Below are positions 27,981-39,894 of a DNA stretch of 40,012 nt, piece by piece. The number at the start of each line of letters is the position of its first letter. The stretch's first letter is position 1. The DNA lies in the NCBI GenBank assembly GCA_043800435.1, contig JAZDMY010000043.1:1-40012 (forward strand), in the 5' to 3' direction. This stretch comes from a bacterium (GTDB lineage Bacteria > Patescibacteriota > Patescibacteriia > JAZDEU01). A program made the translations under genes and the position numbers. The notes under the pieces are model-generated. The model had not been told where the DNA came from. It searched no databases and worked only from the letters and a program-made list of their open reading frames with translations.

Positions 27981-29222
27981 ATGAATCTCAAAGAATCCGC
28001 AAAACTTGCTTTTGATTCTTTACTGGCGAATAAATTTCGCAGTTTTTTGACTATGCTCGGAATTGTTATCGGCGTTGGCTCAATTATAGTTATTATTTCA
28101 GTCGGCGCCGGCGCGCAAAGTTTAATTATAAACCAGATAAAAAGCGTCGGCTCAAATTTGGTGGGTATTTTACCCGGGTCAAGCGAAGAAGAAGGCCCTC
28201 CCGCTTCCGTTATGGGAATCGTCATAACTACTCTTAAATATGAAGACGCAAAGGCGATCTTGAAAAAAAATGATGTGCCGCACGCAGTGGCGGTTGAGGC
28301 AAACGTGCAGGGAATAGGCACGGCAACTTGCGGCAATCAAAGTTTTGATGCCACTTTCATAGGCACTACCGCCGACTATGTAAATGTTGAAGATGCGGAA
28401 ATAGAGCAGGGGAGATTTTTTACCGAACAGGAAGAACACGATTTATCAAGAGTAATAGTTTTGGGAAGCGGCGCAAAAGATGAGCTCTTTGGAAATACTG
28501 ATCCTATAAATGAGAAAGTGAAATTAAAAAAAGAGACATTCCGTGTAATCGGAATGCTCAAGGAAAGAGGATCTGCCGGATTTATCAACCAGGACGATTA
28601 TGTTTTTTTGCCTGTATATACCGCTCAAAAATTATTATTAGGGATTGACCATGTTAGTTTTATTCGCGTTAAGGTTGATGATGCCGAAAATATTGACAGC
28701 ACGAGAGAAGATTTAGAAGTCCTATTGCGCGAAAGGCATAACATTGAAAAAGATGAGCCGGTGGATTTTACCATTAGCAGCCAGGCGCAGGCATTAGAGG
28801 CGCTTACCACTATAACCGACGCCTTAAAATTTTTCCTAGCCGCCATTGCCGCGTTGTCTTTAGTAGTGGGAGGAATAGGCATTATGAATATAATGCTTAT
28901 ATCTGTTAGCGAAAGAACCCGCGAAATCGGACTTAGAAAAGCAATCGGGGCAAAATATAACCATATAATGAAGCAGTTTTTACTTGAGACCGTTATAATT
29001 TCCATACTTTCCGGTCTTATCGGCATTATTATCGGCGCCGTTATTTCCACATTAATTGCCGTTGTAGCGAGATATTTGGACTATGATTGGGATTTAGTTA
29101 TTTCCGTCTTTTCTATTGTTATAGCTGTAGGAGTATCAGGCGCGGTGGGACTCGTTTTCGGTATTTATCCCGCCCGCAAGGCCGCAAAACTTGATCCTAT
29201 TGAGGCGTTGAGATATGAGTAA
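27981..29222 (+). CDS. ABC transporter permease (MacB/FtsX family)
   Basis: N-terminal TM (FRSFLTMLGIVIGVGSIIVIISVG), a large periplasmic domain, and the C-terminal FtsX 3-TM bundle with ERTREIGLRKAIGA and YPARKAAKLDPIEALRYE. Confidence 0.85.
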   Translation: MNLKESAKLAFDSLLANKFRSFLTMLGIVIGVGSIIVIISVGAGAQSLIINQIKSVGSNLVGILPGSSEEEGPPASVMGIVITTLKYEDAKAILKKNDVPHAVAVEANVQGIGTATCGNQSFDATFIGTTADYVNVEDAEIEQGRFFTEQEEHDLSRVIVLGSGAKDELFGNTDPINEKVKLKKETFRVIGMLKERGSAGFINQDDYVFLPVYTAQKLLLGIDHVSFIRVKVDDAENIDSTREDLEVLLRERHNIEKDEPVDFTISSQAQALEALTTITDALKFFLAAIAALSLVVGGIGIMNIMLISVSERTREIGLRKAIGAKYNHIMKQFLLETVIISILSGLIGIIIGAVISTLIAVVARYLDYDWDLVISVFSIVIAVGVSGAVGLVFGIYPARKAAKLDPIEALRYE

Positions 29223-29224
29223 AA

Positions 29225-29704
29225 TTAATAAGATACTTTAAATATTTTATAAAATGGATCAGCAATTATTTCCTTATCTTCAAGTTTAAAATATAACCAT
29301 TGATGAATAAAAAAAGACATAAATAATCTTTTTTTTATAATAATTTCTTCTTCTTTAAATAATCCGGTATTAATTAAAATTGATTTAAATAATCTATTTT
29401 GATTATGACACCATAAAAATTGTTTTTTATCTAAAATATCAGTAGTAGAGAAATCACCAAAAAATAATATTGTCCTAAGATTTTTTATTTTAAATTTCTG
29501 GGTATCTCCTGAATAAGTATTAGTTATGTAATCATAAACATTTTTTATGGTATGAGTTTTATTAGAAGCTTTTAATTTAGCGGATAATTTTTTTAATTTA
29601 TCGTAATTTTCAACTTTGGACTTTTTAAAATAATTCGGGTATAGAAAGTATGGTAAAATTTTGCAGGTTATTAAGTAAAACGCAATTATGTATATAATTT
29701 GCAT
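29225..29704 (-). CDS. small membrane-anchored protein with transglutaminase-like Cys-His-Asp pattern
   Basis: LWCHNQNRLFKSILINTGL...FIHQWLYFKLEDKEIIADP matches the C...H-x-W...D spacing of transglutaminase-like cysteine peptidase cores. N-terminal TM present. Confidence 0.45.
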   Translation of the reverse strand: MQIIYIIAFYLITCKILPYFLYPNYFKKSKVENYDKLKKLSAKLKASNKTHTIKNVYDYITNTYSGDTQKFKIKNLRTILFFGDFSTTDILDKKQFLWCHNQNRLFKSILINTGLFKEEEIIIKKRLFMSFFIHQWLYFKLEDKEIIADPFYKIFKVSY

Positions 29705-29738
29705 AAATAATAGTTATTTTAAATTTTTTGGTATGCAG

Positions 29739-30926
29739 TTATAAATTTTTATATTCCATCGCTTTTTCAATGCCATCCCACCATCCATCAGAATTTGTAT
29801 CTTTATTTTTCGGATCAGTGGGGATGCAATCTGAAGTATAAGCATAAATCCCTTCGCATTTTTCTTCCTCATTGGAAATCCCATCGTGGTCAAGATCGGA
29901 GTCAGAACTAGACGAAGTATAAATTTTTAATAGTTTCCATTGGTCATTATTTTTTACAATATAAATTTTCGTATTTCCGCTTTCCATATTAGAGAATATG
30001 ATGCCTTGATTTTTATCCGCATAAATATCAGAATTATTATTTGTTATTTTATTTAAACTCTCTTTGCCTGAACCCATATTAAATATTTCCTGATTGCATT
30101 CTTCAATGCTTATATTAGGGAAAAGGGAAGCACATTCTTCCGCCGATAGATAAGATATTTCCGAAGAGTTATATACATATTTTTTTAGGTTATCCAAAGT
30201 AGTCCCATTTTTATTAATAATACCTTTATATTCGTCAAGGAATTCCCATATTAGTGTAGAATAATTATTGTTTATATCATATTCATTATGTAAAATTGTC
30301 GTTGAAGCAGGTATCTCTGTAAGATTTTTATTCGTTACGCCTAATCCTAATTTTCGCATCAAATTAAACGCGTCTTCAGGTCTGCCTAAAAAGTATCTTT
30401 TTGTGTCATCTGGGTTAATATACCATGCTTCCCCGTGGTTTTCTACTTGTAGTAATATTTTTCCAGCTTGAGTTTTTGCAAAATTTTTATCTATTTTAAT
30501 TGCGCCATTTCCATTCGGATTATAACTGTTTAATACTTCGGTTTTATCATCATATCCGTCATTATCTGTATCAGGATTATTTTTATCAGTACCTAAAGAA
30601 TCTTCAACCATATTAGAAAGCCCATCCTTATCAGAATCATTACCGCTCAAATTTTCAGAAGCTATTTGAATTTTATTAAGATCTGAATTACAAACTCCCG
30701 TGCTCAACTTTATCATTAGATTAAATGCGTCAGTCGGACTTCCTAAATAATAACGTTTATTATCTTTTGGGTTCACATACCAAGCTTCGCCATGACTTTC
30801 AACTTGCAGAATAATTTTGCCTTTTAATGCATTATCTATAGCGGCAAAAGACGTTCCTATTTTTATAAAACCGAATGTAATTAAAACTAAACATATGAAA
30901 CTAAGAAAAAGAATTTTTTTTTTCAT
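29739..30926 (-). CDS. secreted protein with an internally duplicated ~55-aa domain and Asp-rich Ca-binding-type repeats
   Basis: Signal peptide MKKKILFLSFICLVLITFGF. Duplicated domain: GKIILQVESHGEAWYVNPKDNKRYYLGSPTDAFNLMIKL and GKILLQVENHGEAWYINPDDTKRYFLGRPEDAFNLMRKL. Asp-rich repeats: DSDKDGLSN...DTDNDGYDD and DSDLDHDGISN...DTNSDGWWD. Confidence 0.65.
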   Translation of the reverse strand: MKKKILFLSFICLVLITFGFIKIGTSFAAIDNALKGKIILQVESHGEAWYVNPKDNKRYYLGSPTDAFNLMIKLSTGVCNSDLNKIQIASENLSGNDSDKDGLSNMVEDSLGTDKNNPDTDNDGYDDKTEVLNSYNPNGNGAIKIDKNFAKTQAGKILLQVENHGEAWYINPDDTKRYFLGRPEDAFNLMRKLGLGVTNKNLTEIPASTTILHNEYDINNNYSTLIWEFLDEYKGIINKNGTTLDNLKKYVYNSSEISYLSAEECASLFPNISIEECNQEIFNMGSGKESLNKITNNNSDIYADKNQGIIFSNMESGNTKIYIVKNNDQWKLLKIYTSSSSDSDLDHDGISNEEEKCEGIYAYTSDCIPTDPKNKDTNSDGWWDGIEKAMEYKNL

Positions 30927-30977
30927 ATAAATTTTTTAAGTTAGGAATAAAAGATTATAATATTGATTATAATATTG

Positions 30978-32427
30978 AGTATTCTCTAATCATAAGATGA
31001 TACCATAGTGGTAAGTGCTATTTTTTATAGATTTATGGTGTTTATATTCTCTCGGAATAGAAATTTTTTAAAATTAATTATTTTTGAGAAAATTTTTTAA
31101 ATAATATTGATTTTGCTTTTTGCATTTCCTTTGCAAATTCATTATCACTTTTTTCATTTGCTATCTCATCCATTTTTTCAAAACTAAAATTTTCTTTTAT
31201 ATATTTCTTTGCATCCGGTAATGATTTTAATTTCTCATAAGGCGTAACCCATTGATCATATTTTTTTCTAATTTTTCCTTTAGCGTCAATTTTATTGTCT
31301 GCATACCCGCAGGGTGATATACTAAATAAATATTTAAATACTCCTTATTGAATTTATTTATCTCTTTTGCAAACCTCCCATCGATATAATTCCTGCCGAA
31401 AATTTTTCTTATGATGCTTCCGTTTTTAGACTCCACTAATGCATTGTCATTTGAATGTCTTGATCGCGATTTTGTTAATTCAATATGAATTTTATTTAGC
31501 AACTGGGCGACCACCCTGTTGATGAACTCGCTCCCATTATCTGCATGAAATTCATAAATTGTAAAGGGAAATAATTCTAAGAGTTCTTCTATGACAGGTT
31601 TTAAAAATTGTTCCGTTATTTTTTCTACCGTGCCTATCATTTCATATTGCGTTATCTCATCCACTATATTTATGTGATAAACGCCCTTTTTGCCGTTAAA
31701 ATCGCCCTGATGGACGGTATCAACCCGCAAATACCCTGGCTTGCCATTCGGCTCAGGTTTTCTTCTTATACCGATATTTACCGGCGTGGCTTTTGTCCTT
31801 TTAAAAAATTTTGCTTCGCTGGTATTATATTGATTATTATTATTTCTGATATTGTAAATATGAGCCACTGATATATTTGAAATATTTCCGTAATTGATTT
31901 TTTTATACTTATTGTATTCTCTTTCTAAAATTTGTTTAGTCGCTTCTCCGCTTAAGCAGTCGTGCAGCGTATCCGTTTCAATCAGTAAAGATATGTCCGA
32001 TGGAAAATATTTTTTTGTAAACTTGTTTCTCTTTCTTGTTGGATTGTAAAATAATTTTCCCTTGCGCCATTTCTTGCGGCATCTTTTTAAATGGGATTTA
32101 GAATATCCTGTAAAAAATTTCAAATACATAAGGACAACATGTTTATCAGTTCTATCCAAATGATTATACTTCGTCCAATAAAGAGTGGTTTTGATAAAAT
32201 CATACTTATCCTTAGTAGTTTGTATTTCCAATTTCACACCCTCATCCATCGTGCCCTTTAAAAAATTTTTAATTTGGCTTATACTGCTTAATGGTAAGCG
32301 TTTCATAATGATCCTCATAAATCTATTATGAAAGCAATTACCATTTTTAGCAAGATGGGCCTTTTGGGGCTCATTTTGCGTTAGACTCAATATATCCTCA
32401 TGGTATCATCTTGCATTAGAGAAGACT
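30978..32427 (-). mobile_element. insertion sequence (1450 bp) with imperfect ~30-bp terminal inverted repeats and a 5-bp target-site duplication
   Basis: The left end is AGTATTCTCTAATCATAAGATGATACCAT (30978-31006). The reverse complement of the right end (32427 down to 32400) is AGTCTTCTCTAATGCAAGATGATACCAT. The element is flanked by TATTG at 30973-30977 and 32428-32432. Confidence 0.8.
31078..32390 (-). pseudogene. DDE (rve/integrase-core) transposase, frameshifted near the C-terminus
   Basis: DD(35)E triad: VDTVHQGD, FHADNGSEF and LVESKNG. The main frame ends at 31227. The conserved tail PCGYADNKIDAKGKIRKKYDQWVTPYEKLKSLP...LFKKFSQK is in the -1 frame (31313 down to 31078). The switch is at CACCCTGCGGG (about 31306-31316). 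The IS family is not assigned. Confidence 0.8.
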
Positions 32428-32563
32428 TATTGTTGCTTTTCTATTTAAAATAAGTTAAACTTAAAAGAAGTTCTTTTTTAGTATACTATAAAAAAGTAAC
32501 CTTGACAATAATCTGCACTGAAATGCCATTGCAATATAATGCTTACAATATTGAGTAGTTCTT

Positions 32564-32920
32564 ATGACCATAAGGCAAACAATAACAACCGCCTATAATT
32601 CACTGACAAAGCAAAAAATGCGAAGTTTTTTGACTATTTTAGCTGTGGCTGTCGGAATTGGCATAGTCATTATCGTTTTGTCCTCAGGCGCGGGAATGAA
32701 AGCATTTGTGACAAACCAATTGGACTCATTCGGCTCGGATTTAATGGAAATAGAAGTAAAAGTTCCGAGCACGAAACAGGCATCTGTCTCAAACGCCGCG
32801 GGGCAGGCGATGGGTATAACTATTACGACTTTAAAAGTTGATGATATGGATGCAATACTGAAATTACCAAATATCAAAAATGGTTATTCAATGTTAATGG
32901 GACAGGATTTGGCAAGTTAG
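32564..32920 (+). pseudogene. 5' fragment (117 codons) of a MacB/FtsX-type permease gene, paralogous to 38020-39267
   Basis: By my hand alignment, 100 of 117 residues are identical to the N-terminus of the 38020-39267 product. Nucleotide similarity fades near 32930. The fragment lacks the rest of the periplasmic domain and all FtsX TM helices. Confidence 0.8.
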
Positions 32921-32934
32921 TCTAAAATGAATAT

Positions 32935-33378
32935 ATGGAAAAAGACGCAAAAAAACTCGAAGCCGTATCAGCAGGCGGCATAATTATTCGCCATGCTGAT
33001 TCAGATATAGAACTGCTGCTTATCAGGGATAAACGATACACGGCATGGGTTGTCCCGAAAGGACATGTAGAATACGGCGAGACTCTTGAACAAGCGGCGC
33101 TTAGGGAAATCAAAGAAGAGGCCGGTGTTACGAAGGCTAAAATAATTAAAAAACTTGGACAGTTTCGCCGCTACGTTACATGCGCATCTGAGTGGAAAAC
33201 CATACACTACTTTCTTATGTACGCCGCTAAAGAGCAACCATTGGGACAGCCAGAAGACAACAAGATGGAAACAAAATGGTTCTCAGTCGTAAAATTGCCA
33301 GAGATGTATCTTCCTGAGCAAGAAAAGGTTATTAAAGAAAATCTGGAATCCATTCTTCAGATGAAAAAGATTTCGTAA
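32935..33378 (+). CDS. NUDIX hydrolase, NUDT2/Ap4A-hydrolase-like
   Basis: Contains AGGIIIR...ELLLI...WVVPKGHVEYGETLEQAALREIKEEAGV (Nudix box G-x5-E-x7-REIKEEAG). The PKGH(V)E context is what I recall for bis(5'-nucleosyl)-tetraphosphatase-type Nudix enzymes. Confidence 0.75.
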   Translation: MEKDAKKLEAVSAGGIIIRHADSDIELLLIRDKRYTAWVVPKGHVEYGETLEQAALREIKEEAGVTKAKIIKKLGQFRRYVTCASEWKTIHYFLMYAAKEQPLGQPEDNKMETKWFSVVKLPEMYLPEQEKVIKENLESILQMKKIS

Positions 33379-33443
33379 TAGATGAGAAACATCTATCTAA
33401 ATGGGGTAATAAAAATCAATTTAAAAGAGTATTGTATTTCGCT

Positions 33444-33487
33444 ATAAAAAAAGTGGCTATTCGCAGGAAATAATCATATAGCCACTT
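33444..33487 (-). terminator. intrinsic terminator of the minus-strand PRT-kinase-NTase operon
   Basis: AAGTGGCTAT (33451-33460) pairs with ATAGCCACTT (33478-33487). On the minus-strand transcript the hairpin is followed by a U-run (plus-strand A7 at 33444-33450). Confidence 0.55.
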
Positions 33488-33564
33488 AAAAAGATTTCAA
33501 AAAATGAACAAAAAGACATCAGGAAGACAGGGTGATATTGGTATAGATATTATCCTTTGTTCGG

Positions 33565-34485
33565 CTATTCCATGATGTGATGGCGCAGCTTTACGAGGAT
33601 GAGATTTTTTTTGCTAACCTTGTCGGCATTTACCTCTACGATCGTTCCCGCATTAGTCATTGCTTTATGCAGCCAATGATATGACCAGAGATGATACTGG
33701 GTACCATCAACAGCCTCCAAACAATACTTGCGAGGAAAGCTCCATGAAAAGTTACTAGAGATAATCCTTGCGCGTAGCGTTACCTCGCCAATTGCTGGCC
33801 GTTGATAAAGACATTTCGGAATTTGATGTTGCTCGTTCTCGTTATAAGTAAAGATAAACGAGATTTTATATCCTTCTACGTAAAGTTTAGTCAAATCGCG
33901 CGCAAAGAGGGGAAATAAATGATCAAATGGCAAATTGTAGAGTTTGCCATATCTTTGCGCATACCCGCTAGCCAATTCCGATGACATTAGCTGGGCATCG
34001 TCTGACAATAACGCACTCCTGAGTACTCTTAAACACGGCGCTATGTGCCGGACACCATAGATAAGAATGTCCAAATCAGATTCAGTTGTTTGGCACCCCA
34101 GTGAAAATGACCCACCGAGACCAATATGATTAAAAGGAATATGCGCATCGCGGAGTATTTTCAATAGAACACCCTTTCTGGGATCAGACCCTTTGAGCCA
34201 ACTTTTAAAAGCATGCGCCACATCTATCTGCTCTACAATTTCAGATATGGGGACACGAGCCGCCCAAAGATGCAAATGTTTTTCAGGAGGATAAGGCTGA
34301 TTCCACGGATTGGAACCCTGTTTATGGGCTAAGTATTTTTGATAAGGAAGCCCGCGAAATTTCCGATCACCCCCCTCATAAGGGAAGTACATGGGATAAG
34401 CAGTCACTTCGTGGATGGATAGGCTGGGAGCAATAGTTATGTATACCCAACCTGAACGAGTCAATACTGGATTCAATAATCGCAT
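33565..34485 (-). CDS. Pol-beta-superfamily nucleotidyltransferase with unassigned N- and C-terminal (OB-like?) regions
   Basis: GLGGSFSLGCQTTESDLDILIYG fits hG[GS]-x9-13-Dh[DE]h. I place the start at ATG 34485 (MRLLNPVL...), 7 nt after the upstream gene's TGA, with GAGG spanning that stop. The ORF track starts it at 34560. Confidence 0.65.
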   Translation of the reverse strand: MRLLNPVLTRSGWVYITIAPSLSIHEVTAYPMYFPYEGGDRKFRGLPYQKYLAHKQGSNPWNQPYPPEKHLHLWAARVPISEIVEQIDVAHAFKSWLKGSDPRKGVLLKILRDAHIPFNHIGLGGSFSLGCQTTESDLDILIYGVRHIAPCLRVLRSALLSDDAQLMSSELASGYAQRYGKLYNLPFDHLFPLFARDLTKLYVEGYKISFIFTYNENEQHQIPKCLYQRPAIGEVTLRARIISSNFSWSFPRKYCLEAVDGTQYHLWSYHWLHKAMTNAGTIVEVNADKVSKKNLILVKLRHHIME

Positions 34486-34492
34486 GTTAGCC

Positions 34493-35470
34493 TCAAGCTT
34501 CATGTTTAGAAACTTCATCAAGTATAAAATCCACCATGGATTCAACTGAGGATGTTCCATCGTTAATAACTATAACATGTGCTAATAGCACCAATGACCC
34601 GATGTTATTAGCCTCGTAGCCTGTCCATTCGCCTCCGCGATGAGCATCAAGTTCAATCAGTCGGTTTTCTGACGCTTGCGCCTCTATTAGCCTACCTCTC
34701 CATCGCGCACGCTCATGACGTAAACGATTAGGGACTGAGATGTACACAAGTAATGGATTACCGATCCGATAAAGCTCGGCTATTTCAGATAAACGAAGTA
34801 AATTTCCAACAAAGAATCGTTGGGGTATATTTACATCCCATCCACGGAATTGAAAACCCAAACGTAAGGGTTCGGTTTCCCATTTAGACGGGTGTGGGAG
34901 AGCAGACAGAAGAGGGGAATTGGTTGAACGCATTTCGTCAAGACATGTATAAACTTCGTGCACATGTTCGCCACGACGAAGTAACTCCTGAATCAGATAG
35001 GATTTCCCGGATCCTTTAAGTCCAATTATTCCTACCGGTGTAAAACCGTTTTTGATTATTGTAAATTGTGGTAAATGTCCGTAAAACACCCGTCGCATCC
35101 GTCCGTTAATTGCGACAGATATTCGGTTAGCGTCAGGAATCAACTGACTAATGGGTATCCCAAGCAGTCCGGACAGGTACGCCATAACCGATGATGAATA
35201 AATGATCGTTTGATCCTGTAAAGCAACTCGAATCGAATCTAAAATAGCAGGACTGGGGACAGGTTCTGTCCATCTTTCCAATCCGTCATCGCCATATATC
35301 GAACGAAGTCGTTCAATAATTCGGGTATAGGTTTCACTATCCCGATACAACTCAGCGTCAGCCAGTAGTAAGCTGATAATTGCCAACTCGTGTTTCTTTT
35401 GGAAAATCCCAAGGTCAGCTCTTTGCAGAATCTTCTCTACGAATCGCCCAAGCGTTGTTTTGGAAAACAT
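34493..35470 (-). CDS. P-loop kinase-like protein (dNMP/dephospho-CoA-kinase-like C-terminal half) with unknown ~145-aa N-terminal domain
   Basis: Walker A IIGLKGSGKSYL. The tail ...LLAHVIVINDGTSSVESMVDFIL resembles small nucleotide kinases. I place the start at ATG 35470 (MFSKTTLGRF...) behind GAGGAG. The ORF track starts it at 35578. Confidence 0.6.
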   Translation of the reverse strand: MFSKTTLGRFVEKILQRADLGIFQKKHELAIISLLLADAELYRDSETYTRIIERLRSIYGDDGLERWTEPVPSPAILDSIRVALQDQTIIYSSSVMAYLSGLLGIPISQLIPDANRISVAINGRMRRVFYGHLPQFTIIKNGFTPVGIIGLKGSGKSYLIQELLRRGEHVHEVYTCLDEMRSTNSPLLSALPHPSKWETEPLRLGFQFRGWDVNIPQRFFVGNLLRLSEIAELYRIGNPLLVYISVPNRLRHERARWRGRLIEAQASENRLIELDAHRGGEWTGYEANNIGSLVLLAHVIVINDGTSSVESMVDFILDEVSKHEA

Positions 35471-36104
35471 ATGTCTCCTCCAAATATGTTTGAATGGCGT
35501 GGGTTCCAAAGCGAACAAGTTGATTGAGAATTGCTTGTCGCTCACTGTCTGGCAGATGCAGATCAGGAAGTAAATCACGGATGCGAAATAATGAAAATAA
35601 CTTGAGGTTCATATCATCCTTGAGAGTTTCAATAATTGCATCTCCTGCGGGACTAACTTCTTCCCTGTCAAAGAAACGAATGACCGCGGTTGGTTGTACT
35701 CCGGCATTGTAAAGTGTTTGATGAGCCCATTTGATGGTTTTTCCTGTCGTAACGGCATTATCTGCAATGATTGCAGTACGAACATCAGGAGTCGCAAAAA
35801 TTGGTTGCACATCACTGTAAGGATTCAATGTCGCAATACTTACGCCATGCATCACTCGAGACAAACCATTGAAGACCGCTTGGGCAATCGGAAGACCGCT
35901 CCGAGCAATACCAAACACGCATGGAGCGGACCATGTATCCCATGGTAGTATCTCAACCGCGCGATCAGCCAACATGATCAGCACATCATCAGTGATGGTA
36001 GTCGGGAACTTCACAGAGTATGGAGATGGTCTACCCCCCTTCAGGGTTGTCTGACTAAACATGTATGCTCCGCACTGACTAAGCTTCTGAACTATATTTA
36101 TCAT
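35415..36104 (-). CDS. type I phosphoribosyltransferase, orotate-PRT (PyrE)-like but with altered catalytic motifs
   Basis: GAYMFSQTTLKGGRPSPYS (compare PyrE FGEFTLKSGRKSPYF, from memory) and PRPP loop AIIADNAVTTGKT. The C-terminal region is collinear with PyrE. I place the start at ATG 36104 behind AAGGTGG; the ORF track starts it at 36131. Confidence 0.7.
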   Translation of the reverse strand: MINIVQKLSQCGAYMFSQTTLKGGRPSPYSVKFPTTITDDVLIMLADRAVEILPWDTWSAPCVFGIARSGLPIAQAVFNGLSRVMHGVSIATLNPYSDVQPIFATPDVRTAIIADNAVTTGKTIKWAHQTLYNAGVQPTAVIRFFDREEVSPAGDAIIETLKDDMNLKLFSLFRIRDLLPDLHLPDSERQAILNQLVRFGTHAIQTYLEETYVFQNNAWAIRREDSAKS

Positions 36105-36286
36105 TATTAACCACCTTTCAGTTATTTCCAATAGACTTGTTGCGCATTAATTCACTTGGCTAATTTTAGTAAAACGATTAAGTATTTTTATTTATTTTTT
36201 AGCTAAAATTAGATAAAAAATGAAATTTTTACAAAAATTAGTGTTTTATTCCGCAGCAAGGCTAATGAATATTTTCAATGAGCATA

Positions 36287-36315
36287 GTGACATCTTAGAA
36301 TGAATGTGCTATATT
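36287..36315 (+). promoter_or_regulatory. sigma70-like promoter candidate for the HD-MBL pair
   Basis: GTGACA (36287-36292), a 17-nt spacer, then TATATT (36310-36315). The predicted start site would fall at or next to ATG 36323, giving a possibly leaderless mRNA. Confidence 0.3.
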
Positions 36316-36874
36316 GTCAATTATGATAAGAGGCAAGCAGTTAAATGAATTATTTAATAAAATGACGCCTGCACAAAAAAATTTTTGTGCAATGGTTATC
36401 AAGGAAAATGCGTCAAAATTTTACAGTGCTCCCGGTGGTCTTTATAAACATCAAAACTGGGAAGGCGGCTATCATGATCACGTGGTTGAAACCATGGCAA
36501 TTGCAACGTTACTATACCAAGGGCTCTCTCAATATAGGCCACTTCCATTTACGCTTGCGGAATCCCTATATCTTATCTTTATCCATGATCTGGAAAAAAT
36601 GTTTATCTTAACGATTTCTAAAAATGGTAAGCCAATAAAAATTCAAACTGAAATAAAAGGGCAATCTTCATTTGAGAAAACAATGGAAATGCTCGATAAG
36701 TACCATCTTAAACTATCCAAAAAACATGTTAACGCGCTTAAATACTGTCATGGGGAAAATGAAGATTATCACCCGACTAAAAAGATAATGAACCCACTGG
36801 CAGCATTTATTCATTGCTGTGACACTATTAGCGCACGAATCTGGTATCAATATCCTAAGCATAAACGTAGTTAA
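36314..36874 (+). CDS. HD-domain metal-dependent phosphohydrolase
   Basis: Pattern APGGLYKHQNWEGGYHDHVVETM ... IFIHDLEK ... HG ... CCDTISAR (H...HD...D). The true start may be ATG 36323 rather than TTG 36314. Confidence 0.7.
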   Translation: MSIMIRGKQLNELFNKMTPAQKNFCAMVIKENASKFYSAPGGLYKHQNWEGGYHDHVVETMAIATLLYQGLSQYRPLPFTLAESLYLIFIHDLEKMFILTISKNGKPIKIQTEIKGQSSFEKTMEMLDKYHLKLSKKHVNALKYCHGENEDYHPTKKIMNPLAAFIHCCDTISARIWYQYPKHKRS

Positions 36875-36929
36875 TATACCATTATAAACATGGTTCAATA
36901 AAATACCGTTCTTTAAAAATGGAGGAAAT

Positions 36930-37607
36930 ATGAAAATTACAAAATACGCACAGTCATGCTTTTTGTTTGAGTACCAACAGGGAACGACCGTTCTGGTTGA
37001 TCTTGGTAAGTACAGTACGATCGGGGGCGACCTGCCGAATCGACTGGCAATGCCAACATTGTTCATAGTAACACATGGGCACGAAGATCATTATTATCCT
37101 GACATCATTCGGGCTGTATTGCCGTTTAAGCATGACATCGTCATTCATACTAACGAGATATTGGCTGCTCAAATAGCCCAAGATGGTTTTAAACCGGTCC
37201 CAGTCACTATTGGAACAAAGTTTATATCCAGTGAGCTGCAAGTAATGCCGCTCCGAACCGATCACGTAGTATGGGACAAAGTCGTACCAAATTTTGGCTT
37301 CTTGATTCATTCCACTGAATTAATCCTATATTATGCCAGCGACACTCGATATATAGAGCCGGATATACTCAATCTAGGATGTGAAATTGATTTGTTGATT
37401 ATTCCAATCAGTAATCGTGGACTCGTCATGGGTATGGATGATGTAATTATGTTTGCATCTAAAATCCACCCTAAAGTCGTTATTCCGATGCATTACGATA
37501 GCCCAAAAGATAAGGGCAGAGTTAATCCTAATTGTTTTGCAACGTTGGCTAGAAAGGCTGGGCTAAATGTCAAAGTAATTAAAAACGGAAAAACCGCAAT
37601 TTTCTAA
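36930..37607 (+). CDS. metallo-beta-lactamase-fold hydrolase (small UlaG/YtkL-like type)
   Basis: VTHGHEDHYYPD (HxHxDH), a downstream D/H ligand (ASDTRY) and PMHYD. GGAGG lies 6 nt upstream of the ATG. Confidence 0.8.
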   Translation: MKITKYAQSCFLFEYQQGTTVLVDLGKYSTIGGDLPNRLAMPTLFIVTHGHEDHYYPDIIRAVLPFKHDIVIHTNEILAAQIAQDGFKPVPVTIGTKFISSELQVMPLRTDHVVWDKVVPNFGFLIHSTELILYYASDTRYIEPDILNLGCEIDLLIIPISNRGLVMGMDDVIMFASKIHPKVVIPMHYDSPKDKGRVNPNCFATLARKAGLNVKVIKNGKTAIF

Positions 37608-37797
37608 ATCAGGGGCGTAACACTTTTGTCACGCCTTTGCCAATATATATCTTTTTTAATAATTCCATAGGTGAATGAGAAAATCCTCCCTTGAAAATTT
37701 TTCGGCAACCTATATTTAAGGCTGGGGTGTGTCGCATAGTTTTTTACGACATACTCCAAGCCGTTTTTAATTTTTGCGCAAAAAACTATAATGGGCG

Positions 37798-37930
37798 TGT
37801 CGCCGAATGCCAATTTGTGTCATTCTGAGCGACGGAGGAGCGAATAATCCCAGAGTTTTTTCTCTTAACCACAGGATACTTCATTCGTCTTAGGCTTGTT
37901 CAGGATGACGCTTTTGGGTATTCGGCGACA
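37798..37930. repeat. MITE-like long imperfect palindrome (GTCATTCTGAGC ... GTTCAGGATGAC family)
   Basis: The left arm is TGTCGCCGAATGCCAATTTGTGTCATTCTGAGC. The reverse complement of the right arm is TGTCGCCGAATACCCAAAAGCGTCATCCTGAAC, about 25 of 33 matches by hand. The core is related to 39282-39392 in opposite orientation. Confidence 0.65.
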
Positions 37931-38019
37931 GTCCTCGTATAAAAATTACTTGGTGTTTTTTAGTGGTCATATTTATTGTATTTTAGGTGATTATGTGTTA
38001 AATTTATTATATCAAATAT

Positions 38020-39267
38020 ATGACTTTAGCGCAAACCATCACAACCTCATATAATTCATTAACGAAGCAAAAAATGAGAAGTTTTTTGACTATTTTAGCT
38101 GTAGCTGTAGGAATAGGCATTGTTATTATTGTTCTGTCTTCGGGCGCGGGGATGGAAAAATTTATTTCAAATCAATTAGATTCTTTTGGCACGGATTTAA
38201 TTGAAGTGGAAGTAAAAGTTCCGAGCACGAAACAGGCATCTGTCGCGAACGCTGCCGGCCAGGCAATGGGCATAACAATTACTACATTAAAGTCTGATGA
38301 TATGGATGCCGTGATGAAATTGCCTAATATTAAAAATGGATATTCAATGGTCATGGGGCAGGATTTAGTAAATTATCAAAATGAGAGCAAAAAAGTTATG
38401 CTTATGGGCGTGAGCCCGCAGGCATCGATCGTTGATAAGGCGACAAAGCTTGCCGAAGGAGATTTTATTACTGAAGAAGATGACAAAGGACTCGCGCAGG
38501 CAGCGGTGTTAGGTTTTAAAGTTAAAGAGAAACTTTTTGGCGATGATGATGCAATCGGGAAATATATAAAAATAAAAAGAAAAAATTTTCGTGTGAGCGG
38601 TGTATTAGAAAAAAGAGGGGCGATGATGGGAATGGATTTTGATAATTTAATTTATGTTCCATTAAAAACATTGCAAAAAAAAATATTGGGCATTGAACAC
38701 GTAAGCGCCATATTTATGCAAGTTGCCGATATGGATTTAGTTAATGCGACTAAAGAGGATATAGAAATTTTGCTTAGAGAGAGGCATAATATCAGCGATC
38801 CAACGAAAGACGATTTCGCAGTTATGTCTATGCTTGAGGCAAAGGAAATGATGGATAAAGTTTTCGGCGGAATTACTTTATTGCTTTTGGCGCTTGCGGC
38901 GATTTCTCTTGTTGTCGGCGGCGTGGGAATTATGAATATTATGTATGTAAGCGTTGTGGAACGCACTTATGAAATAGGACTAAGGAAAGCATTAGGTGCT
39001 AAAAATAATGATATTATGAGGCAATTTTTATTTGAGGCGCTGCTTCTTACTTTAACAGGCGGAATAGTCGGAATCTTAGGCGGGCTTTCTCTTACATTTT
39101 TAGTCTCCGTAATCGCTAAAATGAAAAATTTTGACCTGCCTTTTGTAATATCCTTTAATTCATTATTAGTCGGCGTCGGTTTCTCAGGTCTTATGGGGCT
39201 ATTCTTTGGCATTTACCCTGCGAAAAAGGCGGCAACGCTTGATCCGATAGTGGCATTGACTAAATAG
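38020..39267 (+). CDS. ABC transporter permease (MacB/FtsX family), full length
   Basis: Same architecture as 27981-29222: N-terminal TM, periplasmic domain, ERTYEIGLRKALGA, and C-terminal TMs ending YPAKKAATLDPIVALTK. Confidence 0.85.
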   Translation: MTLAQTITTSYNSLTKQKMRSFLTILAVAVGIGIVIIVLSSGAGMEKFISNQLDSFGTDLIEVEVKVPSTKQASVANAAGQAMGITITTLKSDDMDAVMKLPNIKNGYSMVMGQDLVNYQNESKKVMLMGVSPQASIVDKATKLAEGDFITEEDDKGLAQAAVLGFKVKEKLFGDDDAIGKYIKIKRKNFRVSGVLEKRGAMMGMDFDNLIYVPLKTLQKKILGIEHVSAIFMQVADMDLVNATKEDIEILLRERHNISDPTKDDFAVMSMLEAKEMMDKVFGGITLLLLALAAISLVVGGVGIMNIMYVSVVERTYEIGLRKALGAKNNDIMRQFLFEALLLTLTGGIVGILGGLSLTFLVSVIAKMKNFDLPFVISFNSLLVGVGFSGLMGLFFGIYPAKKAATLDPIVALTK

Positions 39268-39281
39268 TATAATGTCCACAT

Positions 39282-39392
39282 CGTCATCCTGAACGACCAC
39301 GCATCCAGTGCGGGGGAGTGAAGGATCCCGTGGTTAAGCAGAAAAACTCTGGGATTCTTCGCCCTCCTGGCGCTCGGGCTCAGAATGACGCG
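39282..39392. repeat. second copy (inverted) of the GTCATYCTGA... palindromic element
   Basis: Its reverse complement shares several blocks with 37817-37912: GTCATTCTGAGC, GCGAA(T/G)AATCCCAGAGTTTTT, CTTAACCAC(A/G)GGAT(A/C)CTTCA and GTTCAGGATGAC. Confidence 0.65.
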
Positions 39393-39480: not shown

Positions 39481-39894
39481 TTATTTTACTATATTTTTTA
39501 AGATAAGATCAGGCAAAATTTTATTCTTAATTATCGGTGAAAGTCGAGGATGAGACAAGTCATCCTTGCCAATCCAATGAAACTTAATTATTTCAGCAGA
39601 TGGTTTGGGCTCGCCAATAATATTACCTTCGTATAGCTTTATAGAAACATCTTTTGTTAAATCGCCTGCCGCAACATCAACATACTCGTTTATATATCGA
39701 AGACTTGTCTCATCCAACTTTACAGCAAGTTCTTCATTTATTTCTTCGACAAGGCATTCAATATCACTTTCGCCTTCATTTAACTGACCACCCGGCATTA
39801 TAAAATCAGAAGTGAAGTTATCCTTCTCACACACTAAAAATTTTGTCTGATCGTCGTTGAGTAATAACAAACCGATTTTATTGAAATAAGCCAT
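39481..39894 (-). CDS. NUDIX-domain protein (degenerate Nudix box)
   Basis: GGQLNEGESDIECLVEEINEELAV matches G-x5-E-x7-(R)E-x2-EE-x-G except at the R position. 137 aa. Confidence 0.65.
   Translation of the reverse strand: MAYFNKIGLLLLNDDQTKFLVCEKDNFTSDFIMPGGQLNEGESDIECLVEEINEELAVKLDETSLRYINEYVDVAAGDLTKDVSIKLYEGNIIGEPKPSAEIIKFHWIGKDDLSHPRLSPIIKNKILPDLILKNIVK

What the first reader, a model, noticed from the sequence alone, without database searches (positions are those of the whole stretch)
33565..36104. Translationally coupled PRT -> P-loop kinase -> Pol-beta NTase operon
Three minus-strand genes are packed with overlaps.
- The kinase ATG (35470) lies 56 nt inside the PRT frame, behind GAGGAG.
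- The NTase ATG (34485) follows the kinase TGA (34493-34495) by 7 nt, with GAGG spanning the stop.
- A 10-bp hairpin plus U-run (33444-33487) closes the unit.

Motifs seen:
- PRPP loop AIIADNAVTTGKT.
- Walker A GLKGSGKS, in the C-terminal half of a protein whose ~145-aa N-terminal domain I cannot place.
- NTase signature GLGGS-x10-DLD, flanked by unassigned N-terminal and possibly OB-like C-terminal regions.

The gene order mirrors a chemical logic: base + PRPP -> NMP -> phosphorylated nucleotide -> nucleotidyl transfer. That reading is inference only. PRTase-domain, kinase and NTase proteins are each known from defence and nucleotide-modification systems, but I do not know this trio as a unit.
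Basis: partly seen in the sequence, partly recalled or inferred. Interest (0 to 1): 0.8.

Follow-up and report, generated by a model that had tools for sequence, protein, structure and literature searches.

The report
Conserved five-gene nucleotide module in Patescibacteria

Summary
The three minus-strand genes are real: dN/dS is 0.13-0.26 against an 82%-identical relative.

- **PRT:** a full-length homologue of orotate phosphoribosyltransferase. It has an invariant D-N PRPP motif and lacks the catalytic lysines.
- **Kinase:** its C-terminal half belongs to the small-molecule AdkA/CoaE-like nucleotide kinase class. Its N-terminal domain has no detectable relative.
- **NTase:** a Pol-beta core (GS...DxD) set between beta/OB-type domains, in an architecture with no solved or Pfam counterpart.

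The unit is larger than reported. In every locus with enough flank, PRT->kinase->NTase is followed tail-to-tail by a Nudix of the dinucleoside-polyphosphate (ApnA) hydrolase clade. It is also accompanied by an HD phosphohydrolase whose position shifts. An MBL hydrolase is present in one clade, including this window.

The cassette is rare: three loci in 185,579 species genomes. It is absent from the phage collections searched and restricted to Patescibacteria-like MAGs, one of which uses UGA=Gly.

My best reading is a make-and-break module: base + PRPP -> nucleotide -> phosphorylation -> nucleotidyl transfer, with dedicated hydrolases. Product and acceptor remain unknown. No known system matches.

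The parts
32935..33378 (+). Nudix hydrolase of the ApnA (dinucleoside polyphosphate) hydrolase clade, convergent with the NTase. It is a core member of the cassette.
   Evidence: Pfam NUDIX scores 3.4e-20. A profile of 8 cassette Nudix proteins hits T. thermophilus Ndx1 at 5.5e-17, Aquifex Ap4A hydrolase at 7.6e-14, human NUDT2 at 4e-12 and C. elegans Ap4A hydrolase at 1.7e-11, all ahead of MutT-type enzymes. The gene is tail-to-tail with the NTase in every locus.
33444..33487 (-). Terminator-like hairpin (10-bp stem, 17-nt loop) followed by a U-run, downstream of the NTase.
   Evidence: Read from the sequence. The fold is -12.7 kcal/mol with z = -1.9. It is not conserved elsewhere: in the other loci the NTase-Nudix spacing runs from a 20-nt overlap (L002) to a 35-nt gap.
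33565..34485 (-). Pol-beta-type nucleotidyltransferase, 306 aa. It has an N-terminal beta domain (about residues 1-88), a catalytic core with G125-S126 and D137-x-D139, and a C-terminal OB-type barrel (about residues 231-306).
   Evidence: Pfam NTP_transf_2 scores 0.007, below the cut-off. The AF2 model has pLDDT 94.6. Foldseek finds OB folds (TEBP-alpha, IF1, RPA; probability up to 1.0) and poly(A) polymerase/NF90, but no full-length match. GS, DxD and P251 are invariant in 31 relatives.
34493..35470 (-). Two-domain kinase, 325 aa. The N-terminal domain (about 140 aa) is novel, with an invariant MFSxTxLG N-terminus and LLLAD and YGD motifs. The C-terminal domain is a P-loop nucleotide kinase with Walker A GLKGSGKS and the arginine-rich motif RHxRxxxRGRxIE.
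   Evidence: The C-domain profile aligns end-to-end with S. solfataricus AdkA-like/UPF0200 (3lw7/3h0k) at E = 0.003. It also matches the CoaE P-loop region and the deoxynucleoside-kinase region that I read as the LID. The N-domain has no PDB hit. Pfam gives only Walker A matches.
35415..36104 (-). OPRT-like type I phosphoribosyltransferase, 229 aa. It has an invariant D-N-A-x-T-T-G PRPP motif and overlaps the kinase by 56 nt.
   Evidence: The profile hits full-length OPRTs (yeast Ura5 7.6e-19, E. coli 1.2e-14), with PyrR next at 5e-4. TIGR00336 scores 48.8 bits against a cut-off of 106.8. Equivalents of K73 and the flexible loop are missing. The R156 equivalent (FDRE) and the T128 equivalent are kept.
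36105..36322 (.). AT-rich divergent intergenic region between the PRT and the HD gene, holding promoter-like sites on both strands.
   Evidence: TTGACA-17-TAAGAT on the minus strand (36320-36292) and GTGACA-17-TATATT with a TG extension on the plus strand (36287-36315). There is no Rfam match and no significant structure; z = -0.9.
36323..36874 (+). HD-superfamily phosphohydrolase (183 aa from the ATG; a TTG at 36314 is also possible). It is a core member of the cassette and is consistently basic, with pI 9.3-9.9.
   Evidence: Invariant residues are H56, H91-D92 (HDLEK), H153, H167 and D170. There is a weak match to the YhaM HD domain, E = 0.09. The family has more than 941 members, mostly in Patescibacteria. 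The gene is adjacent to the trio in every locus, in different positions. pI values are.
36930..37607 (+). Metallo-beta-lactamase-fold hydrolase, an accessory member present only in the window, L001 and L002.
   Evidence: Pfam Lactamase_B_3 scores 6.7e-20. NCBIfam PRK00685 'metal-dependent hydrolase' scores 2e-15, below the cut-off.
32935..37638 (.). Extent of the whole cassette, defined by DNA homology with the closest relative, L002.
   Evidence: blastn of L002 against the window gives 82-85% identity from 37638 down to 32935 and nothing beyond, although L002 has only 274 nt and 56 nt of flank.
32563..32920 (+). Truncated 5' copy of a MacB/FtsX permease gene abutting the cassette. It marks a rearrangement or insertion boundary and is not part of the module.
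   Evidence: A 300-nt direct repeat (32563-32862 against 38019-38318) is 82% identical, with spacing 5456. Pfam finds a MacB_PCD fragment.

Best explanation
This is a self-contained nucleotide make-and-break module of Patescibacteria (CPR) bacteria.

**Core genes**
- The core is five genes. PRT->kinase->NTase form one tightly packed, probably translationally coupled transcription unit.
- A Nudix gene converges on that unit's 3' end.
- An HD phosphohydrolase gene lies alongside.
- An MBL hydrolase is an optional sixth member and is present here.

**Proposed mechanism**
1. *Inferred.* The OPRT-derived PRT binds a pyrimidine or orotate-like base and PRPP, and forms or holds the 5'-mononucleotide.
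2. *Inferred from kinase class.* The AdkA/CoaE-class kinase phosphorylates that nucleotide.
3. *Catalytic motifs shown; acceptor inferred.* The Pol-beta NTase transfers a nucleotidyl group to a phosphate or 3'-OH acceptor held by its flanking beta/OB domains. The product would be a pyrophosphate-linked nucleotide conjugate (dinucleoside-polyphosphate-like) or a nucleotide added to an RNA or oligonucleotide end.
4. *Inferred from family.* The ApnA-hydrolase-type Nudix, the HD enzyme and, where present, the MBL enzyme hydrolyse the product or its precursors. This limits or resets the product.

**Shown**
- The genes are real and under purifying selection.
- Their family-level identities are established.
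- Their linkage is conserved.

**Not shown**
- Any substrate or product.
- Complex formation.
- The biological role.
For: **Linkage**
- The same five genes occur together in the window, L001, L002, L004, L005-7, L010, L011, L013/14/21 and L023.
- NTase identity across these loci is only 35-77%, and background GC ranges from 25% to 58%.
- The flanking genes are unrelated: MacB, NHL protein, PIF1 helicase, T4SS, FabH, histidine kinase.
- The HD gene changes place. It is upstream-divergent, downstream of the Nudix, or co-directional and overlapping in L023. It never leaves the cluster, so the linkage is selected and not merely inherited.
- PRT/kinase/NTase junctions range from a 56-nt overlap to a 7-nt gap in every locus.

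**Selection**
- dN/dS is 0.11-0.26 for all six genes.

**Enzyme classes**
- PRT: full-length OPRT homologue, 7.6e-19.
- Kinase C-domain: aligns end-to-end with the AdkA-like kinase 3lw7 (depositor's name) and matches the deoxynucleoside-kinase LID region. No polynucleotide-kinase hit.
- NTase: intact GS/DxD motifs. The model has pLDDT 94.6, with OB-type domains.
- Nudix: the top seven PDB hits are all ApnA hydrolases.
- HD: metal ligands are intact.

**Literature**
- HD (YqeK), ApaH and Nudix enzymes are the known degraders of Np4N alarmones and Np4 RNA caps (PMC10148737, PMC13010140).
Against: - No substrate is known for any component.
- The PRT lacks the OPRT K73 and flexible-loop lysines and has D-N instead of D-D. 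It may be a nucleotide-binding subunit rather than an enzyme.
- None of the trio reaches a curated family threshold.
- The OB assignment rests on Foldseek hits with E of about 1e-2.
- NTase pI varies from 5.9 to 9.3 among close relatives, so nucleic-acid binding is not supported by charge.
- The HD protein is not YqeK-like by sequence. Its only weak hit is YhaM.
- The same HD family is widespread in Patescibacteria outside the cassette.
- No transcript data are available.
Confidence: 0.4

Rival explanations
1. RNA (for example tRNA) end-processing or repair module. The OB-flanked NTase tails an RNA 3' end. The YhaM-like HD protein trims 3' ends or removes 2',3'-cyclic or 3'-phosphates. The Nudix removes 5' caps or pyrophosphate. 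The kinase and PRT supply or regulate the nucleotide.
For: - The NTase has OB-type domains similar to ssDNA/RNA binders.
- The catalytic core's nearest structures are poly(A) polymerase, Trf4 and TUT7.
- A Micrarchaeota relative of the NTase sits in an overlapping operon with a SAM methyltransferase.
- The HD protein is consistently basic, pI 9.3-9.9.
- The HD protein's only structural-sequence hit is the exoribonuclease YhaM.
- Np4A-degrading hydrolases also shape RNA 5' caps: loss of ApaH or YqeK leads to Np4-capped RNAs (PMC13010140). That Nudix ApnA-type enzymes such as RppH decap RNA is from my own knowledge.
Against: - The kinase matches small-molecule nucleotide kinases, not Pnk/Clp1-type polynucleotide kinases.
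- An OPRT-like PRT has no obvious role in RNA repair.
- There is no ligase, cyclase or Hen1-type partner.
- NTase pI is not consistently basic.
Confidence: 0.2
2. Conflict or anti-phage system. It would make a nucleotide signal or a toxic or chain-terminating nucleotide on infection. The hydrolases would act as the off-switch or self-protection.
For: - Distribution is very patchy: three cassette loci in 185,579 species genomes, and about 10 clusters at 50% identity.
- The flanks are variable.
- In the window the cassette lies next to an rve transposase and a truncated gene copy.
- In L008 it lies next to T4SS genes.
- PRT, NTase, Nudix and HD domains recur in nucleotide-centred conflict systems (PMC5512222).
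Against: - PADLOC has no significant hit. The best is PDC-S09 at E = 0.016 over 24 residues.
- There is no recognisable effector such as a nuclease, pore or NADase, and no sensor.
- There are no phage-encoded counterparts.
- The flanks are ordinary housekeeping genes in several loci.
Confidence: 0.15
3. Non-orthologous salvage route to a dinucleotide cofactor such as NAD. The PRT makes the mononucleotide, the kinase enters from the riboside or phosphorylates the product, the NTase adenylylates, and the Nudix regulates the pool. This would parallel NadV + NadR + NadM.
For: - The functional categories (PRT, P-loop kinase, NTase, Nudix) are the same as in the NadV/NadR/NadM salvage sets (PMC9503650).
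- The CoaE-like features of the kinase recall 3'-phosphorylation of a dinucleotide.
Against: - The PRT is type I and OPRT-like, not the TIM-barrel NadV/PncB type.
- The NTase is Pol-beta, not HIGH-motif.
- The cassette is far too rare to be an essential cofactor route.
- The OB domains are unexplained.
Confidence: 0.08
4. Ordinary pyrimidine salvage genes (PyrE-like PRT plus NMP kinase) that merely sit next to unrelated NTase and hydrolase genes.
For: - The PRT is an OPRT homologue, and the kinase is NMP-kinase-like.
- A generic member of the HD family lies beside CTP synthase in another Patescibacterium.
Against: - The five-gene linkage is kept across loci whose NTases are only 35-77% identical to the window's, with gene-order shuffling.
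- The genes overlap.
- The PRT lacks catalytic OPRT residues and misses the PyrE threshold.
- The cassette is extremely rare.
Confidence: 0.07

Closest known systems
Orotate phosphoribosyltransferase (PyrE/Ura5), type I PRT
   Same: Full-length sequence homology (7.6e-19 to yeast Ura5, 1.2e-14 to E. coli). The 'GRxxPY' hood, the 5-phosphate loop T-T-G-x-T and the equivalents of the orotate-contacting R156 and T128 are kept.
   Different: The PRPP motif is D-N instead of D-D and is invariant. K73 and the catalytic flexible loop (R99/K100/K103) are absent. The protein scores far below the TIGR00336 cut-off (48.8 against 106.8). It is encoded overlapping a kinase rather than in a pyr operon.
Ap4A/Np4N alarmone and Np4-cap turnover enzymes (Nudix ApnA hydrolases such as NUDT2/Ndx1, HD-domain YqeK, ApaH)
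   Same: The cassette Nudix clusters with ApnA hydrolases. An HD phosphohydrolase accompanies it. This fits the make-and-break logic of a pyrophosphate-linked nucleotide (PMC10148737, PMC13010140).
   Different: Known Np4N synthesis is a side reaction of aminoacyl-tRNA synthetases and other adenylate-forming enzymes, not of a dedicated Pol-beta NTase. The HD protein here is not YqeK-like by sequence. No activity has been tested.
NAD+ salvage sets NadV + NadR + NadM (PRT, P-loop riboside kinase, NMN adenylyltransferase, Nudix)
   Same: The same four functional categories are combined to build a dinucleotide from a base and to regulate it (PMC9503650).
   Different: The folds are different: type I OPRT-like against TIM-barrel PRT, and Pol-beta against HIGH-motif NTase. 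There is no sequence relationship. The cassette adds an HD enzyme and OB domains.
Template-independent terminal nucleotidyltransferases (poly(A) polymerase, Trf4, TUTases) and minimal NTases (MntA)
   Same: Pol-beta catalytic core with GS and DxD. The best sequence and structure hits for the core are MntA (5yep), Trf4 (3nyb), TUT7 and PAP (1q78).
   Different: No PAP-associated or RNA-binding domain of those families, and no HEPN partner. The core is instead embedded between an N-terminal beta domain and a C-terminal OB barrel, an architecture with no full-length PDB or BFVD match.
Phage clusters for non-canonical nucleotides (for example PurZ-DatZ-MazZ for the Z base, or T4 dCTPase / dCMP hydroxymethylase / dNMP kinase). 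This comparison is from my own knowledge and was not tested here.
   Same: The logic is the same: a base- or nucleotide-making enzyme and a kinase, plus HD and NTP-pyrophosphatase 'sanitisers', feeding a nucleotidyl-transferring enzyme.
   Different: No homology. The cassette is chromosomal in Patescibacteria and absent from the phage collections searched. The transferase is not a replicative polymerase.

Membership tests
Orotate phosphoribosyltransferase (PyrE) | Type I PRT fold with full-length similarity to OPRT | tested here: met
   Profile A7 against PDB: OPRTs score 7.6e-19 to 1e-7 over positions 9-204.
Orotate phosphoribosyltransferase (PyrE) | Curated equivalog score (TIGR00336 cut-off 106.8 bits) | tested here: not met
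   48.8 bits.
Orotate phosphoribosyltransferase (PyrE) | Acidic pair (D-D) in the PRPP motif, the PPi-binding Lys (K73) and the catalytic flexible loop (K103) | tested here: not met
   D-N is invariant in 9 sequences and also in L023. 'AYKG' is replaced by 'IA(R/D/N/K)(S/K)G', and the loop is shortened without conserved basic residues. Residue roles are from my own knowledge of the E. coli and Salmonella OPRT literature.
P-loop nucleoside/nucleotide kinases (AdkA-like/UPF0200, CoaE, dNK class) | Walker A plus an arginine-rich LID, and similarity across the whole domain | tested here: inconclusive
   GLKGSGKS and RHxRxxxRGRxIE are invariant. There is an end-to-end alignment to 3lw7/3h0k, but only at E = 0.003. 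The Pfam AAA_18 and AAA_33 matches are below their cut-offs.
Polynucleotide kinases (T4 Pnk / Clp1) | Sequence similarity to the Pnk/Clp1 kinase domain | tested here: not met
   No such chain appears among PDB hits up to E = 10.
Pol-beta nucleotidyltransferase superfamily | hG[GS] helix-turn motif and the DxD metal-binding pair on the next strand | tested here: met
   G125-S126 and D137-x-D139 are invariant in 31 relatives. Foldseek hits PAP and NF90. Relatives pass the PF01909 cut-off, while the window protein itself scores 17.2 against 21.
MNT-HEPN (MntA/HepT) toxin-antitoxin | A small (~100-140 aa) NTase paired with a HEPN RNase carrying Rx4-6H | tested here: not met
   The NTase is 306 aa with extra domains. 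No HEPN gene is present in any locus. The kinase N-domain has no Rx4-6H motif among its invariant residues.
CBASS / CD-NTase and other catalogued defence systems | A match to defence-system protein models, with an effector gene | tested here: not met
   PADLOC finds nothing for the PRT or kinase. For the NTase there is only PDC-S09 at E = 0.016 over 24 residues. No effector-like gene is present in the cassette.
Nudix ApnA (dinucleoside polyphosphate) hydrolases | Nudix box and closest similarity to characterised ApnA hydrolases | tested here: met
   The Nudix box is intact. The top seven PDB hits are Ndx1, Aquifex Ap4A hydrolase, NUDT2 and C. elegans Ap4A hydrolase, at 5.5e-17 to 4.4e-11, ahead of MutT1 at 1.9e-9. 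Ndx1 as an Ap6A hydrolase is from my own knowledge.
Nudix ApnA (dinucleoside polyphosphate) hydrolases | Hydrolysis of Ap4A/ApnA | not testable with these tools
   Requires an enzyme assay.
HD-domain phosphohydrolases | H...HD...D metal-ligand pattern | tested here: met
   H56, H91-D92 and D170, plus H153 and H167, are invariant. There is no Pfam PF01966 hit at E <= 0.01. The YhaM match is only E = 0.09.
YqeK-type HD Ap4A hydrolase | Sequence similarity to YqeK | tested here: not met
   No YqeK chain appears among PDB hits up to E = 10 with profile A5.
NAD salvage NadV/NadR/NadM | TIM-barrel type II PRT and HIGH-motif NMN adenylyltransferase | tested here: not met
   The PRT is type I and OPRT-like. 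The NTase is Pol-beta. The family definitions are from PMC9503650.

The most novel reading that the evidence does not exclude
A lineage-specific pathway of Patescibacteria that builds a non-canonical, pyrimidine-derived nucleotide from a free base. A previously unrecognised OB-flanked Pol-beta NTase family would then install it, either as a new dinucleoside-polyphosphate-type alarmone or as a terminal modification on RNA. Dedicated Nudix and HD 'erasers' are encoded alongside. This would be a complete writer/eraser nucleotide system with no characterised counterpart.
Probability: 0.25. Interest if true: 0.85.

Novelty: categorically new. Interest (0 to 1): 0.66.

Why it matters
Patescibacteria/CPR make up a large share of bacterial diversity. 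They are mostly uncultured and depend on scavenged nucleotides, so almost nothing is known about their specialised nucleotide chemistry.

**What is new here**
- A compact, portable, strongly conserved cassette combines a base-activating enzyme homologue, a nucleotide kinase with a novel domain, and a structurally new NTase family.
- It also carries two or three matching hydrolases.
- This combination is the signature of a dedicated small pathway. It could serve a new nucleotide signal, a new RNA-end modification or a new conflict system.

**Why it is tractable**
- All proteins are small and soluble-looking.
- The cassette is under 5 kb.
- The predicted reactions can be tested with PRPP, bases and NTPs.

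**Further gains**
- Characterising the cassette would assign a function to an NTase family of about 290 cluster representatives that extends into DPANN and marine archaea.
- It would also help with an HD family of about 1,000 members that is widespread in Patescibacteria.

Tried and rejected
- **Riboswitch or leader RNA upstream of the PRT.** Rfam in E-value mode on 32400-38100 gave only a chance MS2-hairpin hit at E = 1.1. The leader fold has z = -0.9. Rejected.
- **Phage origin.** tblastn of the NTase and kinase against 50,697 phage records found nothing, and a pattern scan of IMG/VR with the NTase found nothing. Only the HD family has one hit, in a 635-kb 'uncultured phage' record.
- **Known defence system.** PADLOC was negative.
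- **MNT-HEPN toxin-antitoxin pair.** The best single-sequence PDB hit for the NTase was MntA, but no HEPN partner is present and the protein has extra domains. Rejected.
- **Polynucleotide kinase.** No Pnk or Clp1 similarity.
- **YqeK identity of the HD protein.** Not supported.
- **GC content as proof of horizontal transfer.** The trio is 44% GC against 35% for the window. However, neighbouring MacB genes are 38-42%, and cassette GC tracks host GC in other loci. This is weak evidence only.
- **First AF2 model.** The 7-sequence alignment gave an unreliable C-terminus (pLDDT 66.7). I replaced it with a 31-sequence model.
- **Genome scan with the broad NTase alignment.** It failed because no stretch was conserved enough.
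- **Metagenome scan with the kinase alignment.** The generic P-loop pattern saturated it, and it yielded only 2 loci.
- **Burroughs & Aravind 2016 RNA-repair survey.** The paper is not held, so I could not check whether it mentions a similar cluster.
- **Literature searches.** Searches for the gene combination, for Patescibacteria nucleotide salvage, and for COG1665/UPF0200 found nothing relevant.

Full report
**1. Observation**

Reading the minus strand of 33300-36400 confirms each coordinate.

| Feature | Coordinates | Detail |
|---|---|---|
| PRT | ATG 36104, stop ends 35415 | behind AAAGGTGG |
| Kinase | ATG 35470 | 4 nt after GGAGGAG; 56 nt inside the PRT frame |
| Kinase stop | TGA 34495-34493 | overlapped by GAGG |
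| NTase | ATG 34485, stop ends 33565 | 7 nt after the kinase stop |
| Hairpin | arms 33487-33478 / 33460-33451 | 10 bp, 17-nt loop, run of U |

- The hairpin folds at -12.7 kcal/mol with z = -1.9. Its long loop keeps it out of the consensus terminator scan.
- The three quoted motifs are present at PRT 111-123, kinase 150-157 and NTase 122-139.
- GenBank calls the kinase with the same start (325 aa).
- GenBank starts the NTase at M32 (275 aa).

**2. The genes are real**

- Against the closest relative (L002, 82-85% DNA identity), dN/dS is 0.13 for the NTase, 0.18 for the kinase and 0.26 for the PRT.
- For the three neighbouring genes discussed below, dN/dS is 0.11-0.17.

**3. What the three proteins are**

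None reaches a curated threshold in Pfam or NCBIfam. PADLOC and PHROGs give nothing useful. Profiles built from the homologues are more informative.

*PRT*
- It is a full-length homologue of orotate phosphoribosyltransferase. Yeast Ura5 scores 7.6e-19 and E. coli 1.2e-14. PyrR follows at 5e-4.
- It keeps the GRxxPY hood, the T-T-G 5-phosphate loop and the FDRE arginine, which equals OPRT R156.
- Its PRPP motif is an invariant D-N.
- The PPi-binding lysine (K73) and the catalytic flexible loop are missing. The D-N motif also holds in the most distant cassette, L023.

*Kinase*
- The C-terminal half (profile A10) aligns end-to-end with the S. solfataricus AdkA-like/UPF0200 kinase 3lw7/3h0k at E = 0.003.
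- It also matches the P-loop region of dephospho-CoA kinases and a deoxynucleoside-kinase segment that I read as the LID. No polynucleotide kinase appears.
- The N-terminal ~140 residues have an invariant MFSxTxLG start and LLLAD and YGD motifs. They have no detectable relative.

*NTase*
- G125-S126 and D137-x-D139 are invariant.
- A 7-sequence AF2 model was poor. A 31-sequence model reached pLDDT 94.6.
- Foldseek finds no full-length match in PDB or BFVD.
- The core resembles poly(A) polymerase and NF90. The flanking beta domains resemble OB folds of TEBP-alpha, IF1, RPA and proteasomal Rpt subunits.

**4. The unit is larger than a trio**

The NTase family is very small: 7 proteins in a 5.8-billion-protein database. 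The kinase family has 9. Looking up their contigs shows the same neighbours every time.

The invariant part is PRT->kinase->NTase followed tail-to-tail by a Nudix gene. A 171-195-aa HD-type gene is always adjacent, but its position varies.

| HD position | Loci |
|---|---|
| Upstream and divergent | window, L001, L002, L004, L005-7, L013/L021 |
| Downstream of the Nudix | L010, L011, the P0007 contig |
| Co-directional and overlapping the PRT | L023 |

- An MBL-fold hydrolase follows the HD gene only in the window, L001 and L002.
- Junctions within the trio range from a 56-nt overlap to a 7-nt gap.
- Flanking genes are unrelated among loci.
- Background GC ranges from 25% to 58%.
- NTase identity to the window falls to 35%.
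- Retention of the five genes through this divergence and reshuffling is strong evidence of a functional unit.

**5. Rarity and hosts**

- A scan of one genome for each of 185,579 species found three cassette loci, plus one archaeal NTase without the partners.
- An exhaustive profile search found 13 representatives below 1e-30.
- All carrier records are unclassified 'bacterium' MAGs from groundwater and sediment.
- The HD family's other members carry Parcubacteria, Uhrbacteria, Paceibacterota and 'Patescibacteria group' names.
- L023 has in-frame TGA at conserved glycine positions, with TAA/TAG as its only terminators. This is genetic code 25, so it is a Gracilibacteria/Absconditabacteria genome despite its 'Spirochaetaceae' label.
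- I infer that the window itself is from a Patescibacterium. This is not shown directly.

**6. The partner hydrolases**

*Nudix*
- A profile of eight cassette Nudix proteins hits, in order: T. thermophilus Ndx1 (5.5e-17), Aquifex Ap4A hydrolase (7.6e-14), human NUDT2 (4e-12) and C. elegans Ap4A hydrolase (1.7e-11).
- MutT1-type enzymes begin at 1.9e-9.
- It therefore belongs to the dinucleoside-polyphosphate hydrolase clade.

*HD*
- The full H...HD...H...H..D ligand set is present.
- It is consistently basic, with pI 9.3-9.9.
- Its only structural-sequence hit is the HD domain of the exoribonuclease YhaM, at E = 0.09.
- Generic members of the family occur outside the cassette, once beside CTP synthase.

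*MBL*
- It is a Lactamase_B_3 / PRK00685-like metal hydrolase of unknown substrate.

**7. Wider NTase family**

- About 288 cluster representatives share the three-domain architecture. They include DPANN and marine archaeal proteins.
- Their contexts differ and never include the PRT or kinase:
  - an overlapping SAM-methyltransferase->NTase->unknown operon in a Micrarchaeon;
  - housekeeping neighbours including an HD gene and a methyltransferase;
  - RadA in marine archaea.
- The cassette NTases are a specialised bacterial branch of an uncharacterised family. The flanking domains of that family are not in Pfam.

**8. Mechanism**

*Shown*
- Five to six enzymes that all act on nucleotides or phosphoanhydrides are held together by selection.
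- Three are encoded in a way that favours coupled, equimolar synthesis.
- The other two or three are hydrolases.

*Inferred*
- Biosynthetic arm: an OPRT-like PRT forming or holding a pyrimidine-type mononucleotide, a small-molecule nucleotide kinase phosphorylating it, and a Pol-beta NTase transferring a nucleotidyl group to an acceptor held by its OB-type domains.
- Degradative arm: the ApnA-type Nudix, the HD enzyme and, where present, the MBL enzyme.
- The Nudix clade points to a pyrophosphate-linked product. This would be either dinucleoside-polyphosphate-like or a nucleotide cap or tail.
- HD (YqeK), ApaH and Nudix enzymes are the known erasers of Np4N alarmones and Np4 RNA caps (PMC10148737, PMC13010140).
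- The PRT has lost the OPRT catalytic lysines, so it may need a partner or act as a nucleotide-binding subunit. In OPRT, that loop acts in trans across the dimer (my own knowledge). This makes complementation by the kinase's novel N-domain conceivable, but it is pure speculation.

**9. Rivals**

- RNA-end processing or repair. For: OB domains, the YhaM-like basic HD protein, and the archaeal methyltransferase linkage. Against: the small-molecule kinase class and the unexplained PRT.
- A conflict or defence system. For: patchiness and mobile neighbours. Against: no PADLOC hit, no effector and no phage counterparts.
- A non-orthologous NAD-type salvage route. For: the same functional categories as NadV/NadR/NadM (PMC9503650). 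Against: different folds and far too rare.
- Ordinary pyrimidine salvage with chance neighbours. Contradicted by linkage, overlaps, rarity and the degenerate PRT site.

**10. Context in the window**

- DNA homology with L002 runs exactly from 32935 to 37638.
- The left edge abuts a truncated 118-aa MacB/FtsX gene fragment. Its first 300 nt are 82% identical to the start of the intact MacB gene at 38020.
- Upstream lie an rve-type transposase (31227-32390) and two AT-rich ORFs.
- The cassette therefore sits in a rearranged spot among ABC-permease paralogues. This is consistent with acquisition, but does not prove it.
- The 186-nt NTase-Nudix spacer with the hairpin is specific to this window. 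In L002 the two genes overlap.

**11. Novelty and verdict**

- No catalogued defence system matches the cassette.
- No Rfam RNA family is present in it.
- The NTase architecture and the kinase N-domain have no solved-structure counterpart.
- The searchable literature holds no description of the gene combination.
- The building blocks belong to known superfamilies, but the system cannot be filed under any known kind.
- Function remains unproven, and interest is moderate to high.

Noticed in passing
window 33565-34485 (-): The GenBank annotation (V1860_01865, 275 aa) starts the NTase at M32. The 31 upstream residues (MRLLNPVLTRSGWVY...) are conserved in all homologues, so the deposited gene model is truncated.
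   Followed up: yes
window 32563-32862 and 38019-38318: A 300-nt direct repeat, 82% identical. A truncated 118-aa MacB/FtsX 5' fragment lies 14 nt from the Nudix start, and the intact paralogue lies 5.4 kb away. A third MacB paralogue is at 27981-29222.
   Followed up: partly
window 29225-32390 (-): An rve-family transposase or integrase (31227-32390) is preceded by two ORFs without family matches. One of them is only 20% GC (29225-29704). This is probably an inserted mobile element next to the cassette.
   Followed up: no
window 37827-37886 and 39316-39375: A 60-nt inverted repeat, 80% complementary, brackets the intact MacB gene (38020-39267). Its nature (REP/MITE-like or a terminator pair) is unknown.
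   Followed up: no
window 39481-39894 (-): A second, separate Nudix gene (137 aa, Pfam 9.4e-9) lies just beyond the MacB gene. Its relation to the cassette Nudix was not examined.
   Followed up: no
L023:3477-10400: This contig is labelled 'Spirochaetaceae bacterium 4572_7' in NCBI. It has many in-frame TGA codons at conserved Gly positions and uses only TAA/TAG as stops. That is genetic code 25 (Gracilibacteria/Absconditabacteria), so the label is probably a binning error.
   Followed up: yes
L014:1-20564: In one Hainich groundwater assembly the cassette lies within a repeat of about 13.45 kb (86-100% identity). The repeated part includes a 1068-aa M23 peptidase, 396-aa and 166-aa ORFs, and a 402-aa Nudix fusion. 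A 209-nt fragment of the cassette Nudix 3' end is also duplicated 2.3 kb away.
   Followed up: partly
L020 (LR745206.1 601840-602346); L015:6001-6564: The HD family of the cassette has more than 941 members across Patescibacteria. One copy (40% identity) is in a 635-kb 'uncultured phage' record. A generic member sits beside CTP synthase and a nucleoside deoxyribosyltransferase-like gene.
   Followed up: partly
L012:3859-6292; L017:5135-7260: Distant archaeal relatives of the NTase are found in an overlapping SAM-methyltransferase->NTase->unknown operon next to a RIO kinase (Micrarchaeota). They are also found next to radA, followed by an unknown 350-aa gene, in marine archaea.
   Followed up: partly
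L011:10131-10628: A SLOG cluster-4 (LOG/DprA-like nucleotide-binding) gene immediately follows the HD gene of the cassette in this locus only.
   Followed up: no
window 35467-35506 (-): A weak Rfam match to the MS2 operator hairpin (17.7 bits, E = 1.1) spans the kinase Shine-Dalgarno sequence and start codon. It is almost certainly chance, but a small hairpin there could modulate coupling.
   Followed up: no
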